A stretch of DNA of 64,000 bases, taken from NCBI RefSeq assembly GCF_003334255.1, contig NZ_QOWU01000001.1, one strand, 5' to 3'. Under the pieces are notes generated by a model that did not search any database, had not been told where the DNA came from, and was given only the letters and a program-made list of their open reading frames with translations. Below are positions 1-55,948 of this stretch, piece after piece. Source of the DNA: Escherichia coli (lineage in GTDB: Bacteria > Pseudomonadota > Gammaproteobacteria > Enterobacterales > Enterobacteriaceae). The position numbers and the translations under genes are program-made. Positions within the stretch are counted from its first letter, which is position 1; the number at the start of each line of letters is the position of its first letter.

Positions 1-744
1 GAAGTTCCCGGTGCCGCAGAAACTATCCTGCGCCAGCTGGAACATTACGGTCTGCACTGGGACGGCGATGTTCTCTGGCAATCGCAACGTCACGACGCCT
101 ATCGTGAAGCACTCGCCTGGTTACATGAACAAGGACTAAGTTATTACTGCACCTGTACGCGTGCGCGTATTCAAAGCATTGGCGGTATTTACGACGGTCA
201 TTGCCGGGTGTTGCATCATGGACCAGACAACGCCGCAGTGCGTATCCGCCAGCAGCATCCGGTCACGCAATTTACTGACCAGCTGCGCGGCATTATTCAC
301 GCCGACGAAAAACTGGCACGGGAAGATTTTATCATTCATCGCCGTGATGGGTTGTTCGCCTACAACCTGGCTGTTGTGGTTGATGATCATTTCCAGGGCG
401 TTACAGAAATAGTGCGTGGGGCTGATCTGATTGAACCAACAGTAAGGCAAATCTCGCTGTACCAGCTTTTTGGCTGGAAAGTGCCAGATTACATTCATCT
501 GCCGCTGGCGCTTAATCCACAAGGCGCTAAACTTTCCAAGCAGAATCATGCGCCTGCGTTGCCGAAAGGCGATCCACGCCCGGTACTAATCGCGGCACTT
601 CAATTTCTGGGGCAGCAGGCAGAAGCACACTGGCAGGATTTCAGCGTCGAGCAAATCCTTCAGTCAGCCGTCAAAAACTGGCGGCTTACCGCCGTGCCCG
701 AGTCGGCAATTGTAAATTCAACATTCTCAAATGCGTCATGCTGA
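1..744 (+). CDS. gluQ: glutamyl-Q tRNA(Asp) synthetase, 5' end truncated by window edge
   Basis: Frame 1 is open from position 1 to TGA at 742-744; translation matches what I recall of E. coli GluQ (YadB); lies immediately upstream of pcnB as in E. coli. Confidence 0.85.
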
Positions 745-803
745 GCTATGATTAGCCGCTATTTTTTTGTCCTGAATGATGTTTGACACTACCGAGGTGT
801 ACT

Positions 804-2201
804 ATTTTTACCCGAGTCGCTAATTTTTGCCGCAAGGTGCTAAGCCGCGAGGAAAGCGAGGCTGAACAGGCAGTCGCCCGTCCACAGGTGACGGTGATCC
901 CGCGTGAGCAGCATGCTATTTCCCGCAAAGATATCAGTGAAAATGCCCTGAAGGTAATGTACAGGCTCAATAAAGCGGGATACGAAGCCTGGCTGGTTGG
1001 CGGCGGCGTGCGCGACCTGTTACTTGGCAAAAAGCCGAAAGATTTTGACGTAACCACTAACGCCACGCCTGAGCAGGTGCGCAAACTGTTCCGTAACTGC
1101 CGCCTGGTGGGTCGCCGTTTCCGTCTGGCTCATGTAATGTTTGGCCCGGAGATTATCGAAGTTGCGACCTTCCGTGGACACCACGAAGGTAACGTCAGCG
1201 ACCGCACGACCTCCCAACGCGGGCAAAACGGCATGTTGCTGCGCGACAACATTTTCGGCTCCATCGAAGAAGACGCCCAGCGCCGCGATTTCACTATCAA
1301 CAGCCTGTATTACAGCGTAGCGGATTTTACCGTCCGTGATTACGTTGGCGGCATGAAGGATCTGAAGGACGGCGTTATCCGTCTGATTGGTAACCCGGAA
1401 ACGCGCTACCGTGAAGATCCGGTACGTATGCTGCGCGCGGTACGTTTTGCCGCCAAATTGGGTATGCGCATCAGCCCGGAAACCGCAGAACCGATCCCTC
1501 GCCTCGCTACCCTGCTGAACGATATCCCACCGGCACGCCTGTTTGAAGAATCGCTTAAACTGCTACAAGCGGGCTACGGTTACGAAACCTATAAGCTGTT
1601 GTGTGAATATCATCTGTTCCAGCCGCTGTTCCCGACCATTACCCGCTACTTCACGGAAAATGGCGACAGCCCGATGGAGCGGATCATTGAACAGGTGCTG
1701 AAGAATACCGATACGCGTATCCATAACGATATGCGCGTGAACCCGGCGTTCCTGTTTGCCGCCATGTTCTGGTACCCACTGCTGGAGACGGCACAGAAGA
1801 TCGCCCAGGAAAGCGGCCTGACCTATCACGACGCTTTCGCGCTGGCGATGAACGACGTGCTGGACGAAGCCTGCCGTTCACTGGCAATCCCGAAACGTCT
1901 GACGACATTAACCCGCGATATCTGGCAGTTGCAGTTGCGTATGTCCCGTCGTCAGGGTAAACGCGCATGGAAACTGCTGGAGCATCCTAAGTTCCGTGCG
2001 GCTTATGACCTGTTGGCCTTGCGAGCTGAAGTTGAGCGTAACGCTGAACTGCAGCGTCTGGTGAAATGGTGGGGTGAGTTCCAGGTTTCCGCGCCACCAG
2101 ACCAAAAAGGGATGCTCAACGAGCTGGATGAAGAACCGTCACCGCGTCGTCGTACTCGTCGTCCACGCAAACGCGCACCACGTCGTGAGGGTACCGCATG
2201 A
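804..2201 (+). CDS. pcnB: poly(A) polymerase I
   Basis: Translation [22 protein letters not shown]... matches PcnB. The track ORF starts at a TTG at 783, but the recognised N-terminus begins at the ATT codon 804-806, preceded by GAGG at 794-797. Stop TGA at 2199-2201. Confidence 0.9.
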
Positions 2202-2677
2202 CAGTGGCGTATATTGCCATAGGCAGCAATCTGGCCTCTCCGCTGGAGCAGGTCAATGCTGCCCTGAAAGCATTAGGCGATATCCCTGAAAGCCACATTC
2301 TTACCGTTTCTTCGTTTTACCGCACCCCACCGCTGGGGCCGCAAGATCAACCCGATTACTTAAACGCAGCCGTGGCGCTGGAAACCTCTCTTGCACCTGA
2401 AGAGCTACTCAATCACACACAGCGTATTGAATTGCAGCAAGGTCGCGTCCGCAAAGCTGAACGCTGGGGACCACGCACGCTGGATCTCGACATCATGCTG
2501 TTTGGTAATGAAGTGATAAATACTGAACGCCTGACCGTTCCGCACTACGATATGAAGAATCGTGGATTTATGCTGTGGCCGCTGTTTGAAATCGCGCCGG
2601 AGTTGGTGTTTCCTGATGGGGAGATGTTGCGTCAAATCTTACATACAAGAGCATTTGACAAATTAAACAAATGGTAA
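2198..2677 (+). CDS. folK: 2-amino-4-hydroxy-6-hydroxymethyldihydropteridine pyrophosphokinase (HPPK)
   Basis: 159 aa, [19 protein letters not shown]... matches FolK; ATG at 2198 overlaps the pcnB stop (ATGA). Confidence 0.93.
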
Positions 2678-3046
2678 TTTATTTATATTGCGAATATAAA
2701 TATTTTCTGAAAATCATATCTCATCTCTTTCCTTAATTACGATTTTAGTTTAAACATCTCTTTGCGGAAATAATATAACTTCCTATAAATAAATATCAAT
2801 CCCATCTCCATACCCTAACCAATTGCACTTGTGAACTTATTTTTACTTAATTTTGAATTAAGTAAATTTAATTTGTTCAAAAGCTTCTAAAGTGCACAAT
2901 AGGCGACCTAATGAACAATGGTTGTAAATTTGGGTAACAAATATCATTGCTCATTAATATCTAACATTTGTTTCTCCTATTTGTGTCATGAATAGTCATT
3001 CTTCAAACATGTAGTCTGACTAATGGAATTTTATTAAAGGATTTTT

Positions 3047-36913: not shown

Positions 36914-37073
36914 GGGTTATTCCTTATCTATCTAATAACGTTGAGTTTTCTGGAACCTGTCCCATTGAACTCTCGCCGGAAAGCTCAATAAGACAGGTTC
37001 TACGTTTAGTTGCCGCGCTTTTATATGCGCTTGATTTACAACATCTTCTGGATAATTTTTACCAGAAAAATCA

Positions 37074-48290: not shown

Positions 48291-48496
<206 letters not shown>

Positions 48497-48503
<7 letters not shown>

Positions 48504-48886: not shown

Positions 48887-48945
48887 TGTCTTAAACCTAT
48901 AAAAAAGGCGCAGAATCCTGCGCCTTTTACTTCAACAGTTAGCTT

Positions 48946-51651
48946 TTATTGCAGGCGGCCATGGCACTGCTTGTATTTTTTACCAGAACCGCACGGGCAA
49001 GGATCGTTACGTCCTACTTTGCGCTCTCCGGTTTGCGCCGCCAGTGCAGCTGCGGCTGCAGAGTCGTCATCCTGATGGCTAAGCTGCTGCATTTGCGCTA
49101 AACGCTCGGCTTCCATACGACGCTGTTGTTCCAGCTCCTCAACCTCTTCAGGCATACGTACCTGAACTTTGCTCAGCGTACTGATAACTTCATATTTCAA
49201 CGACTCCAGCATCGCTGCAAACATGGAGAACGATTCACGTTTGTATTCCTGCTTCGGATCTTTCTGTGCGTAGCCACGCAGGTGGATACCCTGACGCAGA
49301 TAGTCCATCGCTGCCAGGTGCTCTTTCCACAGGGAGTCAAGCGTTTGCAGCATGACGCCTTTCTCGAAGTGACGCATCATCTCAGCACCAACCACTTCTT
49401 CTTTACGCTGATACACTTCGATGGACTGCGCCAGAATGCGCTCACGCAGCGTCTCTTCATGCAGTTCTGGTTCTTTATCCAGCCACTCGGCAATTGGCAA
49501 ATCGAGGTCGAAATCGTTCTTCAGACGTTCCTGCAGCCCCGGAATATCCCACATTTCTTCCAGCGACTGTGGTGGAATGTAGGCATCAATGGTCGCTTTG
49601 AACACATCTTCACGAATGCTGTTAATGGTTTCGCTCACATCGCTGACATCCAACAGTTCGTTACGCTGGGAGTAAATGGCGCGACGCTGATCGTTAGCCA
49701 CGTCATCATATTCCAGCAGTTGCTTACGAATGTCGAAGTTACGGCTTTCAACTTTACGCTGGGCGTTGGCAATCGCTTTAGTCACCCACGGGTGTTCAAT
49801 GGCTTCGCCTGGCTTCATACCCAGTTTACGCATCATGCCGGATACTCGGTCGGAAGCAAAAATACGCATCAGCGCATCTTCCATCGACAGGTAGAAACGG
49901 GAAGAACCAGCATCCCCCTGACGACCAGAACGACCGCGCAACTGGTTATCGATACGACGGGATTCGTGACGCTCGGTACCGATGATATGCAGGCCACCTG
50001 CTTCCAGTACCGCATCGTGACGTACCTGCCAGTCGGCTTTAATTTTTTCAATTTGCTCTGCGGTCGGATTTTCCAGCGCGGCAACTTCTGCCTGCCAGCT
50101 ACCACCGAGCACAATATCTGTACCACGACCCGCCATATTGGTCGCGATAGTCACCGCAGCCGGATAACCTGCCTGAGCAACAATCGCCGCTTCGTTGGCG
50201 TGGAATTTGGCGTTCAGGACGTTGTGCTTAATACCGGCTTTGGTCAGTTCGTTTGACACCAGCTCCGATTTTTCGATGGAGATAGTACCCACCAGCACCG
50301 GCTGGCCTTTCGCAGTACGTTCTTTGATATCTTCAATGATCGCCTGAATTTTTTCCGCTTCAGTCATGTAGACCAGGTCCGGCAGATCTTTACGAATCAT
50401 TGGACGGTTGGTCGGAACAACGACGGTATCCAGCTTGTAGATTGAGCTAAATTCGAAAGCTTCGGTATCAGCAGTACCGGTCATCCCCGCCAGTTTTTCA
50501 TACAGACGGAAGTAGTTCTGGAAGGTGATCGAAGCCAGCGTTTGGTTTTCGTTCTGGATCTGCACACCTTCTTTCGCTTCCACAGCCTGGTGCAGACCAT
50601 CGGACCAGCGACGGCCCTGCATGGTACGACCGGTGTGTTCGTCAACGATGATAACTTCACCATCTTTAACGATGTAGTCGACGTCACGGGTAAACAGCGC
50701 ATGAGCGCGCAGCGCCGCCGTTACGTGGTGCATCAGCATGATGTTGGCCGGAGAGTACAGAGACTCCCCTTCATCCATGATGCCCTCTTTCACCAGCAGT
50801 TCTTCAATCAGCACCAGACCACGTTCGGTCAGGTTCACCTGGCGAGATTTTTCGTCCACCGAGAAGTGGCCTTCGCCCTGGAAGGTTTCGGAGTCTTCTT
50901 TTTCCTGACGGATCAGGTGCGGAATAATTTTATTCACGCGTTTATACATTTCCGAGCTGTCTTCTGCCGGGCCGGAAATGATCAGCGGTGTACGCGCTTC
51001 ATCGATCAGGATGGAGTCCACTTCGTCCACCAGCGCATAGTGCAGTTTACGCTGTACACGTTCTTCAGGGCTGAACGCCATGTTGTCGCGCAGGTAGTCA
51101 AAGCCGTATTCGTTGTTCGTACCGTAAGTGATGTCAGCTGCGTAAGCTTCGCGCTTTGCCGGTGCTGGCATGCCCGGCAGGTTGATACCGACAGTCAGGC
51201 CAAGGAATTCAAACAGCGGACGGTTGTTTTCGGCGTCACGTTGCGCCAGGTAGTCGTTGACGGTAACTACGTGCACGCCTTTACCGGTTAGTGCGTTCAG
51301 GTAAGCAGGCAGCGTTGCGGTCAGGGTTTTTCCTTCACCGGTACGCATTTCGGCGATGCAGCGTTCGTTAAGAACCATACCGCCGAGTAACTGAACGTCG
51401 AAGTGACGCATACCAAAGACGCGCTTACTTGCCTCACGTACCACGGCGAAAGCTTCCGGGATCAGATTTTCCAGCACTTCGCCTTTTTCCAGACGTGCAC
51501 GAAACTCTGCGGTTTTCCCTTTCAGTTCTTCGTCGGAGAGTTTTTCCATCTCCGGTTCCATGGCATTGATGATGTTGACCACTTTGCGCATCCGGCGCAG
51601 GGTGCGATCGTTACGACTACCGAAAACTTTAGTTAACAATTTGATTAGCAT
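48946..51651 (-). CDS. secA: preprotein translocase ATPase SecA
   Basis: 901 aa, [25 protein letters not shown]...; DEAD-like motor; C-terminal zinc-binding [14 protein letters not shown]. Confidence 0.97.
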
Positions 51652-53473: not shown

Positions 53474-54625
53474 TTAATCAGCTTGCTTACGCAGGAATGC
53501 TGGGATATCCAGATAATCCGGCTCTTTCGCAGTTTGCGGCGCATTGTCATTCACGACTTTAGCAACCGGCTTCTGCTCCTGGGTCAGCGGAGCCATCCCA
53601 TGCTGCTGGTAGCGATCCATCACTGGCTGCTGAACCTGCTTATTGGTCACCAGAGTGATTTCAGGACGTTTGTCCATGCCGATACCTGTCGCAACAACGG
53701 TTACGCGCAGCTCGTCATTCATATCCGGGTCAAGAGAAGTACCGATAACCACAGTCGCGTTGTCGGAAGCAAATGCACGGATGGTGTTACCTACCGTTTC
53801 GAACTCATCCAGACGCAGGTCGAAGCCCGCCGTGATGTTAACCAGCACGCCGCGCGCGCCAGACAGGTCGATATCTTCCAGCAGCGGAGAAGAGATAGCC
53901 ATTTCAGCAGCTTCTTCCGCACGGTCTTCACCGCTCGCCACGCCAGAACCCATCATTGCGTAGCCCATCTCAGACATTACGGTGCGTACGTCTGCAAAGT
54001 CCACGTTCATCAAACCCGGACGAGTAATCAGTTCAGCGATACCTTGCACAGCGCCTTTCAGTACATCGTTCGCTGCGCCAAACGCATCCAGCAGGGAGAT
54101 ACCGCGGCCCAGAACTTTCAGCAGTTTGTCGTTCGGGATAGTGATCAGAGAGTCCACATGCTTGGACAGTTCAGTGATCCCCTGCTCCGCGAATGCCATA
54201 CGCTTCTTGCCTTCAAAGTTGAAAGGCTTAGTGACGACAGCAACGGTCAGGATACCCAAATCTTTTGCCACTTCAGCGACGACTGGTGCTGCACCTGTAC
54301 CGGTACCACCACCCATACCCGCAGCAATAAAGACCATGTCTGCACCTTCCAGCGCCGCACGCAATGCATCGCGATCCTCATCAGCCGCATTGCGGCCAAC
54401 TTCTGGATTAGCGCCAGCGCCCAGTCCTTTGGTGATACCGCTACCGATTTGAATCGTCTGTCCAACCGCTGTTTTACGCAGCGCTTGTGCATCGGTATTT
54501 ACCGCGAAGAATTCAACACCTTCAATGCGCTCGCGCACCATGTGTTCAACAGCATTACCGCCGCCGCCGCCGACGCCGATGACTTTAATCACCGCGTCAT
54601 TGGTAAGTTCCATTGGTTCAAACAT
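53474..54625 (-). CDS. ftsZ: cell division GTPase FtsZ
   Basis: 383 aa, tubulin signature GGGTGTG. Confidence 0.97.
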
Positions 54626-54685
54626 AGTTTCTCTCCGATTTGTGCCTGTCGCCTGAGGCCGTAATCATCGTCGGCCTCATAAAAA

Positions 54686-55948
54686 TTAAAACTCTTTTCG
54701 CAGCCAACTATTGAGTCGCTTGATCCACGAGCCAACTGATGCTGTAACACGTTTTTCTACTTCAGCTTCACCGTTAAGATGTGACTCTTTCCCATAGTGA
54801 AGCAATCCCACCGCCGTCGAATAATACGGCTCCTGAGCATAATCCGTTAAACCGGTAATGTTCAGCGGCGCGCCGATACGCACTTGCGTATGAAACACGC
54901 GCTGAGCACAGGCTGCAAGACCTTCGATCTGCGCTGCGCCACCGGTTAATACAATGCCTGCCGCCAGGTGATGTTTAACCCCTTGTTGGCGAAGCTTTTC
55001 CTGCAACTGCAATATCTCTTCGTTGACCAGGTTGAGCAGCTCGGTATAGCGCGGCTCGATCACCTCTGCCAGTGTCTGACGTTGCAGACTCCGTGGCGGA
55101 CGACCACCTACGCTCGGCACTTCCACGCTCTCATCTTTTCCAACGATGGAACCCAGCGCACAACCGTGGCGAACTTTAATCGCTTCGGCGTCGCTTGGCG
55201 GCGTGCCAAAGGCGTAAGCGATATCACTGGTCACGACATTGCCAGCATAAGGAATTACCTTAGTGTGGCGCAATGCCCCACCGGTATAAACGGCGATATC
55301 CATTGTACCACCACCGATATCGACGACGCAGACACCCAGTTCACGTTCATCTTCCGTCAATACCGAATAACTTGATGCCAGTCCGGCAAATATCAGTTGG
55401 TCAACTTTCAGCCCACAACGTTCAACCGCTTTGACGATGTTTTTCGCCATATCGTTGTGACATGTGATCAGGTGCACTTTTGCCTGCATCCGCACGCCCG
55501 AAAGTCCTACCGGATTCTTGATCCCTTCCTGATAGTCAATCGCATACTCTTGCGGGATCACATGCAGCACACGATGCTCATCGCGCACACGCACCGATTT
55601 CGCGGTATGGACGACGTTTTCCACATCTTCTTGCGTCACTTCTTCTTCAGAAATAGGCACCATACCAATTTCATTCTGGCAGCTGATGTGCTTACCAGAA
55701 AGCGCCAGATATACCGAAGAGATCTGACAATCTGCCATCAATTCTGCCTGGTCAATGGCGCGTTGTACGCACTTGACCACGGATTCGAGGTCGTTCACCC
55801 CGCCTTTATCCATACCACGCGACGGGCAGCTGCCCACGCCAATGATATTGACCATACCGTCGGGCAGAACTTCCCCTACTAAAGCGGCAACCTTCGCGGT
55901 ACCAATCTCCAGTCCTACTACCAGTTTTCTGTCCGTCGCCTTGATCAT
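54686..55948 (-). CDS. ftsA: cell division protein FtsA (actin-like ATPase)
   Basis: 420 aa, [20 protein letters not shown].... Confidence 0.96.

What the first reader, a model, noticed from the sequence alone, without database searches (positions are those of the whole stretch)
804..806. pcnB initiates at a non-canonical ATT codon
The recognised PcnB N-terminus (IFTRVANF...) begins at ATT 804-806, preceded by GAGG at 794-797 with 6-nt spacing; the nearest in-frame alternative is a TTG at 783 lacking a comparable RBS. AUU initiation is rare and limits poly(A) polymerase levels, so it is a regulatory feature rather than an annotation error.
Basis: partly seen in the sequence, partly recalled or inferred. 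Interest (0 to 1): 0.3.

Follow-up and report, generated by a model that had tools for sequence, protein, structure and literature searches.

The report
pcnB's known ATT start codon
The E. coli poly(A) polymerase gene pcnB really does begin at the rare start codon ATT at window 804-806, but this was shown experimentally in 2002 and is already in the reference annotation, so the finding is correct and ordinary.

Summary
RefSeq (PGAP and MG1655 b0143) starts pcnB exactly at 804. Binns & Masters (2002) established AUU initiation and its limiting effect on poly(A) polymerase I; citing papers list pcnB and infC as the only two confirmed AUU-start genes in E. coli. My additions are comparative. ATT is present in 80/80 Enterobacteriaceae species genomes. 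The 61 nt around it are identical in 5417/5425 complete E. coli genomes, and none has ATG. ATT also fills 120/120 metagenome matches where the start codon was left free, and it persists in relatives only 62-67% identical. Only the ATT has a strong anti-SD match (-9.8 kcal/mol). TTG 783 is present in 26/80 genomes, and 43/80 have no canonical in-frame alternative upstream. The one thing I could not explain is near-absolute conservation of synonymous sites in codons 1-9, the most constrained stretch of the gene. Two RNA-structure explanations were tested and failed. Verdict: real, correctly interpreted, already known, low interest.

The parts
804..806 (+). ATT initiation codon of pcnB
   Evidence: sequence; the RefSeq CDS starts here. 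ATT in 80/80 species genomes; 5417/5425 E. coli genomes are identical over 775-835 and none has ATG. ATT in 120/120 metagenome matches with the start codon left free.
794..799 (+). Shine-Dalgarno GAGGTG, 4 nt upstream of the ATT
   Evidence: invariant in 80/80.: -9.8 kcal/mol to the anti-SD, top 1.6% of random 20-mers. Also kept in the distant relatives L084 and L085.
804..2201 (+). pcnB coding sequence (465 codons plus stop), poly(A) polymerase I
   Evidence: NCBIfam NF008634 equivalog, 997 bits against a cut-off of 702, covering residues 1-464.
807..830 (+). Codons 2-9, with almost invariant synonymous sites (unexplained nucleotide-level constraint around the start)
   Evidence: the only variable sites in +1..+36 are five third-codon positions; normalised synonymous entropy for codons 1-9 is 0.034 against a gene mean of 0.563, the lowest 9-codon window in the gene.
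777..779 (+). In-frame TGA that closes the reading frame upstream
783..785 (+). In-frame TTG, the historical 472-aa alternative start; not conserved and without an SD
   Evidence: a TTG at -21 in 26/80 genomes only, and 43/80 have no canonical in-frame start upstream of the ATT.: -2.3 kcal/mol.
837..839 (+). GTG at codon 12, the start chosen by many automatic gene callers (454-aa form); not the real start
   Evidence: 33/120 database clusters start MLSREES.: -0.1 kcal/mol; this codon is GTC in L084.
957..959 (+). Internal ATG at codon 52, the originally proposed start (+1(b) of PMC2939334)
   Evidence: the PS1.rev primer maps to 938-961. ATG in only 23/79 genomes; the rest have Leu codons.
724..752 (+). 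Conserved sigma-70-like promoter module, TTCTCA-17 nt-TATGAT, followed by TAGCCGC. It probably corresponds to one of the mapped pcnB promoters (pB?), but this identity was not verified.
   Evidence: 9/12 consensus match. TATGAT present in 70/80 genomes at variable distance from the ATT.
528..533 (+). -10 element TAAACT of the published sigma-S promoter pS2, used here to anchor literature coordinates

Best explanation
pcnB (poly(A) polymerase I) is translated from the near-cognate codon AUU at window 804-806. The 30S subunit is positioned there by a strong, invariant Shine-Dalgarno, GAGGUG, 4 nt upstream. Initiator tRNA pairs imperfectly with AUU, and IF3 discriminates against non-canonical starts (general knowledge). 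Initiation is therefore inefficient, which keeps PAP I at a few tens of molecules per cell; overproduction is toxic. Shown here: the sequence, the annotation, the conservation, and the absence of conserved alternatives. Taken from the literature: initiation at AUU and its limiting effect. Inferred, not shown for pcnB here: that IF3 is the discriminating factor.
For: Sequence and frame.
Annotation: RefSeq CDS starts at 804.
Literature: AUU start and translational limitation; about 30-50 PAP I molecules per cell and toxicity on overexpression.
Coordinate cross-check.
Conservation: ATT 80/80 and GAGGTG 80/80; 5417/5425 E. coli genomes identical over 61 nt and no natural ATG variant; ATT in 120/120 metagenome matches with a free start codon, across 51 distinct contexts; the same SD-N4-ATT architecture in relatives 62% and 67% identical.
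No alternative start: 43/80 genomes have no in-frame ATG/GTG/TTG between the upstream stop and the ATT.
Coding signature from codon 3 on: all 5 variable sites in +1..+36 are synonymous third positions. There are no indels in the 96 nt after the ATT, against many in the 50-80 nt before it.
Distant homologs: those with canonical GTG/ATG starts encode a homologous basic N-terminal segment.
SD strength: strong only for the ATT.
Family model: the NCBIfam equivalog aligns from residue 1.
Against: I could not read the primary experimental paper, so the experimental claim rests on its title and on how others cite it. No initiation-site ribosome profiling or N-terminal proteomics for pcnB turned up in the searchable literature. 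One paper calls the RBS 'poor', whereas the SD is strong by sequence. PMC2939334 notes two anti-PAP I bands on western blots and raises a possible second, shorter isoform. The bare SD-ATT motif is not statistically unusual in the window.
Confidence: 0.93

Rival explanations
1. Translation starts at the upstream in-frame TTG 783, giving a 472-aa protein, and the ATT is an ordinary internal Ile codon.
For: TTG is a canonical bacterial start, in frame, two codons after the stop. Database entries of 472 aa exist. One paper's Introduction says 'UUG'. Salmonella has ATG at this position.
Against: There is no SD (-2.3 kcal/mol, 68th percentile of random 20-mers). A TTG at -21 is present in only 26/80 genomes, 43/80 have no canonical start there at all, and upstream stops lie as close as -15. 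The region upstream of GAGGTG carries indels that break the frame. The literature and RefSeq place the start at the ATT.
Confidence: 0.02
2. Translation starts at GTG 837 (codon 12), as many gene callers predict. On this view the invariant 804-836 stretch is a conserved 5'-UTR element rather than coding sequence.
For: 33/120 database clusters begin MLSREES. GTG 837 is invariant in the 80 genomes. The extreme nucleotide conservation of 804-830 could in principle reflect a non-coding element.
Against: No SD (-0.1 kcal/mol). All five variable sites in +1..+36 are synonymous third positions. In L084 the codon is GTC, and substitutions in codons 2-11 of L084 and L085 are synonymous or amino-acid replacements, with the frame intact. 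Distant homologs with canonical starts encode the equivalent basic N-terminal segment. The NCBIfam equivalog model covers residues 1-464.
Confidence: 0.02
3. In addition to the AUU start, a shorter isoform is made from an internal start: ATG 957 on transcripts from the sigma-S promoter pS1, or GTG 888/894 in E. coli. The AUU would then be the main initiation site but not the only one.
For: PMC2939334 reports pS1 activity downstream of the ATT, two anti-PAP I bands on western blots, and a putative SD plus AUG. GTG 894 has AGGUG 3 nt upstream (-8.2 kcal/mol). Crystallised constructs starting at residue 28/29 fold.
Against: ATG 957 is conserved in only 23/79 genomes and its SD is weak (-4.0 kcal/mol). 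Codon 31 is GTG in 7/79. pS1 is active in vivo only in ppGpp0 stationary-phase cells. The authors themselves call the shorter isoform unproven.
Confidence: 0.1

Closest known systems
E. coli pcnB AUU start (Binns & Masters, Mol Microbiol 2002, 44:1287)
   Same: It is the same locus, the same codon and the same interpretation. The window is 100% identical to E. coli genomes over 600-1100, and the literature coordinates map onto 804.
   Different: Nothing in kind. This report adds only present-day comparative numbers and the synonymous-site constraint on codons 1-9.
infC (IF3) AUU/AUC start, autoregulated by IF3
   Same: A rare AUU initiation codon limits expression. It is conserved across many bacteria and is the only other confirmed AUU start in E. 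coli.
   Different: For infC the gene product is itself the discriminator, which closes an autoregulatory loop. pcnB has no such feedback through its own product. IF3 dependence of pcnB was not tested here and is not stated in the papers I could read. Outside Enterobacterales-like relatives, pcnB uses GTG/ATG.
Enterococcus faecalis ebpA ATT start (PMC4447247)
   Same: A rare ATT start attenuates expression of a protein whose level matters, and automatic annotation mis-called a downstream canonical codon.
   Different: Unrelated gene and organism; the consequence concerns pilus biogenesis.

Membership tests
PcnB / poly(A) polymerase I (NCBIfam NF008634 equivalog; TIGR01942) | Whole-protein score above the curated cut-off of the equivalog model | tested here: met
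   NF008634 scores 997.1 bits against a cut-off of 702, residues 1-464 on profile 1-468/469. TIGR01942 scores 523 bits against 305.65.
PcnB / poly(A) polymerase I (NCBIfam NF008634 equivalog; TIGR01942) | Domain set PolyA_pol head (PF01743), RNA-binding (PF12627) and Arg-rich C-terminus (PF12626) | tested here: met
   precomputed Pfam domains of the 100%-identical cluster P0002; 100% identity to E. coli PAP I structures 3AQK/L/M/N over residues 28-442.
PcnB / poly(A) polymerase I (NCBIfam NF008634 equivalog; TIGR01942) | Conserved synteny gluQ - pcnB - folK | tested here: met
   the same order is seen in L084 and L085.
Genes translationally limited by an AUU initiation codon (infC/pcnB type) | AUU at the 5' end of the conserved coding region, with an SD at functional spacing | tested here: met
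Genes translationally limited by an AUU initiation codon (infC/pcnB type) | No conserved canonical start codon that could serve instead | tested here: met
   43/80 genomes have none upstream. ATG 957 in 23/79; codon 12 is GTC in L084.
Genes translationally limited by an AUU initiation codon (infC/pcnB type) | Non-canonical start conserved across species rather than a strain-specific mutation | tested here: met
Genes translationally limited by an AUU initiation codon (infC/pcnB type) | Initiation at the AUU mapped experimentally, and AUU-to-AUG raises expression | not testable with these tools
   Reported by Binns & Masters 2002, as cited. The primary paper is not held.
Genes translationally limited by an AUU initiation codon (infC/pcnB type) | Expression responds to IF3 level or activity | not tested
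   Established for infC. For pcnB I found no statement in the accessible literature and cannot test it computationally.

The most novel reading that the evidence does not exclude
The pcnB initiation region may hold more than a weak start codon. Synonymous sites of codons 1-9 (804-830), including a rare CGA codon, are essentially frozen across Enterobacteriaceae and are the most constrained stretch of the gene. The ATT is never replaced in more than 200 independent contexts. This could mark an undescribed cis-regulatory element overlapping the start, for example a binding site for a small RNA or protein, or sequence requirements specific to AUU/IF3-dependent initiation, that tunes PAP I synthesis to growth conditions.
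Probability: 0.15. Interest if true: 0.4.

Novelty: already known. Interest (0 to 1): 0.1.

Why it matters
PAP I adds the poly(A) tails that mark bacterial RNAs for decay and that control ColE1-type plasmid copy number. The cell holds it at a few tens of molecules because excess is lethal, and the AUU start is one of the mechanisms that enforce this. That has been in the literature since 2002, so confirming it changes nothing conceptually. The practical value is for annotation. More than half of the public protein clusters for this gene carry a wrong N-terminus: ab initio gene callers cannot choose ATT, and Salmonella entries may be over-extended. The frozen synonymous sites after the start are a modest, testable lead.

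Tried and rejected
(1) Primary paper. Binns & Masters 2002 is not in the library, so I relied on citing papers.

(2) SD-sequestering hairpin. The candidate pairs C793-G799 with U809-G814 and leaves AUU in the loop. It folds at only -4.5 kcal/mol, and 38/200 shuffles fold as well. The 90-nt region is, if anything, less structured than shuffles (z = +1.08). By eye, the pairing is also broken in L085 (T-to-S and R-to-Q codon changes). I rejected it as an explanation for the synonymous constraint.

(3) Long-range helix GAUUAGC 750-756 with GCUAAUU 819-825 (MFE of 740-830). Rejected for two reasons. The 5' arm lies in the -10/discriminator of the conserved promoter module, so transcripts from it probably lack that arm (inferred). 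About 10 genera lack that arm yet keep the 3' arm invariant.

(4) Known RNA families. There is no Rfam hit in 1-3000, even at E <= 1.

(5) Motif enrichment. The bare motif is not above chance, so it was not used as evidence.

(6) Indel-phase test of coding between the ATT and codon 33. It was uninformative because there are no indels at all.

(7) Initiation-site profiling literature for pcnB. The one paper found concerns S. aureus.

(8) DNA for distant representative P0148. It could not be fetched.

(9) PDB. The constructs start at residue 28/29, so they say nothing about the start.

(10) TTGACA at 783-788 as a -35 element. By eye, no acceptable -10 lies at 16-18 nt, and the scan did not report it.

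Full report
WHAT IS THERE. The window begins in gluQ (ORF ending at 744), followed by pcnB and folK. verifies every coordinate in the finding. ATT is at 804-806 and GAGG at 794-797, with 6 nt (TGTACT) between them. TTG at 783-785 is in frame. An in-frame TGA at 777-779 closes the frame upstream. Between that stop and the conserved N-terminus, the only start-like codons are therefore TTG 783 and ATT 804. The next in-frame candidates downstream are GTG 837 (codon 12), GTG 888/894 and ATG 957 (codon 52). Translation from 804 gives 465 codons, [12 protein letters not shown]..., ending at 2201. That stop overlaps the folK ATG at 2198 (ATGA).

IDENTITY AND ANNOTATION. Window 600-1100 matches 5425 of 5426 complete E. 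coli genomes at 95-100% identity. In a PGAP-annotated genome the pcnB CDS (WP_010723084.1) starts at the base corresponding to window 804 and is 1398 nt long. MG1655 b0143 (NP_414685.4) has the same length. The protein scores 997 bits on the NCBIfam PcnB equivalog NF008634 (cut-off 702), aligned from residue 1. It is identical over residues 28-442 to the crystallised E. coli poly(A) polymerase.

LITERATURE. [quoted passage not shown] I could not open that primary paper. Independent papers describe infC and pcnB as the only two confirmed AUU starts in E. coli, and say expression is limited by the AUU in both. PMC3561954 adds three points. There are only about 30-50 PAP I molecules per cell. Overexpression kills cells. 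Binns & Masters had already noted phylogenetic evidence for AUU starts in PAP I homologs of many Proteobacteria.

To be sure the literature's ATT is the one at 804, I mapped the paper's pS2 promoter. Its -10 element TAAACT occurs once, at 528-533. [quoted passage not shown] 6-8 nt after the -10 element. That spacing works only for ATT 804, not for the ATTs at 761, 823 or 918. The paper's primers also map as expected.

COMPARATIVE TESTS (new here).
(a) Across species. A scan of one genome per species returned 80 Enterobacteriaceae loci at 86-100% protein identity. The aligned codon is ATT in 80/80 and GAGGTG is invariant.
(b) Alternative upstream starts. In 43/80 genomes there is no in-frame ATG, GTG or TTG between the nearest upstream stop and the ATT. 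A TTG at -21 occurs in 26/80. In-frame stops lie as close as -15. Upstream of GAGGTG the sequences carry indels.
(c) Within E. coli. The 61 nt at 775-835 are identical in 5417/5425 genomes. A query carrying ATG instead of ATT found no exact match in any genome.
(d) Unbiased metagenome scan. The pattern GAGGTG-N7-TTTACCCGAGTCGC leaves the start codon free.
(e) More distant relatives. A 1.08-Mb reduced genome (62% identity, L084) and a 5-Mb genome (67%, L085) keep GAGGTG-N4-ATT-TTT. Relatives at 48-51% identity use GTG or ATG but still encode a comparable basic N-terminal segment. This agrees with the remark that pcnB starts alternate among canonical codons in other phyla.

IS THE STRETCH AFTER THE ATT REALLY CODING? 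This matters because many gene callers start the gene at GTG 837. Of the 120 best database clusters, 51 begin MFTRV (ATT start, NCBI), 33 begin MLSREES (GTG 837), 22 are truncated further and 14 are extended upstream. Four lines of evidence support coding from the ATT:
- All five variable sites in +1..+36 are third-codon positions and synonymous.
- There are no indels in the 96 nt after the ATT, whereas the 50-80 nt before it vary in length.
- In L084 codon 12 is GTC, and codons 2-11 of L084 and L085 differ by synonymous changes or amino-acid replacements, with the frame intact.
- The NCBIfam model covers these residues.
ATG 957, the originally proposed start, is ATG in only 23/79 genomes and a Leu codon in the rest.

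RIBOSOME-BINDING SITE. Pairing of the 20 nt upstream of each candidate to the 16S 3' end gives:
- ATT 804: -9.8 kcal/mol (top 1.6% of random 20-mers from the window)
- TTG 783: -2.3
- GTG 837: -0.1
- GTG 888: -4.5
- ATG 957: -4.0
(all). It also shows the SD is good by sequence, although one paper calls the RBS poor. The bare SD-N-ATT motif is not rarer than chance in the window, so it is the context that carries the argument.

MECHANISM. Shown here or in the cited literature: a strong SD places the ribosome on an AUU, output is low, and PAP I is scarce and toxic in excess. Inferred from general knowledge of initiation: AUU pairs imperfectly with the initiator tRNA anticodon, and IF3 rejects such complexes. 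IF3 dependence was neither tested here nor found stated for pcnB.

AN UNEXPLAINED EXTRA. In a codon-aware alignment of 79 genomes, codons 1-9 have a normalised synonymous entropy of 0.034 against a gene mean of 0.563. This is the lowest 9-codon window in the gene, and the rare CGA at codon 4 is 80/80. I tested two structural explanations:
- A small hairpin pairing the SD with codons 3-4, with AUU in the loop, is weak and not better than shuffles.
- A long-range helix between 750-756 and 819-825 is excluded. Its 5' arm sits in the -10/discriminator of a conserved promoter module (TTCTCA-17-TATGAT). It is also absent from about 10 genera that keep the 3' arm invariant.
No Rfam family matches. 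The constraint may simply reflect selection on the whole ribosome-contact region of a weak-start gene, or it may mark an undescribed binding site. I rate the latter at about 0.15.

VERDICT. Interest is low.

Noticed in passing
window 807-830 (pcnB codons 2-9): Synonymous sites are almost invariant across 80 Enterobacteriaceae species, making this the lowest 9-codon window in the gene (0.034 against a mean of 0.563). The rare CGA at codon 4 is 80/80. Two RNA-structure explanations were tested and rejected, and the cause is unknown.
   Followed up: partly
L022 and L023 (Salmonella enterica subsp. diarizonae/arizonae), 21 nt upstream of the ATT; protein P0013: Where E. coli has TTG 783, Salmonella has an in-frame ATG with no SD. 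NCBI's main Salmonella cluster is the 472-aa form MTLPRCAIFTRV... (2921 members), yet ATT and GAGGTG are retained. This is either an over-extended annotation or a genuine second start.
   Followed up: partly
public protein clusters P0001-P0120: Start calls for pcnB disagree widely. Of 120 clusters, 51 start at the ATT, 33 at GTG codon 12 (454 aa), 22 are further truncated and 14 are extended upstream. Ab initio gene callers cannot pick ATT.
   Followed up: yes
window 724-759: A sigma-70-like promoter module, TTCTCA-17 nt-TATGAT, followed by the GC-rich TAGCCGC, is conserved in about 70/80 genera at variable distance (-42 to -78) from the ATT. It is duplicated in L085. The GC-rich discriminator would fit the published ppGpp/DksA inhibition of the main pcnB promoter, but I did not verify that this module is pB.
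   Followed up: partly
window 909-950 (codons 36-49): This is a second patch of low synonymous variability, e.g. CGC AAA GAT invariant in 79/79. It lies just upstream of the internal ATG 957 and appears to lie in the area of the published sigma-S promoter pS1 (its exact position was not mapped here). ATG 957 itself is not conserved (23/79).
   Followed up: partly
window 886-896: In E. coli, GTG 894 (codon 31) has AGGUG 3 nt upstream (-8.2 kcal/mol to the anti-SD), which makes it a possible minor internal start. Codon 31 is GTG in only 7/79 genera, and codon 29 is ATG in 72/79 other genera but GTG in E. coli.
   Followed up: no
window 2198-2201: The pcnB stop and the folK start overlap (ATGA), suggesting translational coupling. 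Some database proteins are PcnB-FolK fusions (P0017 at 630 aa, P0106 at 584 aa, both with PF01288), presumably from frameshifts or sequencing errors at this junction.
   Followed up: no
PMC3561954: The paper gives the pcnB start as 'UUG' in its Introduction and 'AUU' in its Discussion, a trace of the older 472-aa model.
   Followed up: no
window 36916-37029 (+), 48304-48497 (-), 48901-48970 (-), 54617-54706 (-): Rfam gathering-score matches elsewhere in the window: tp2, two naRNA4 copies, STnc40 and PssrA. All are described families and none is related to this finding.
   Followed up: no
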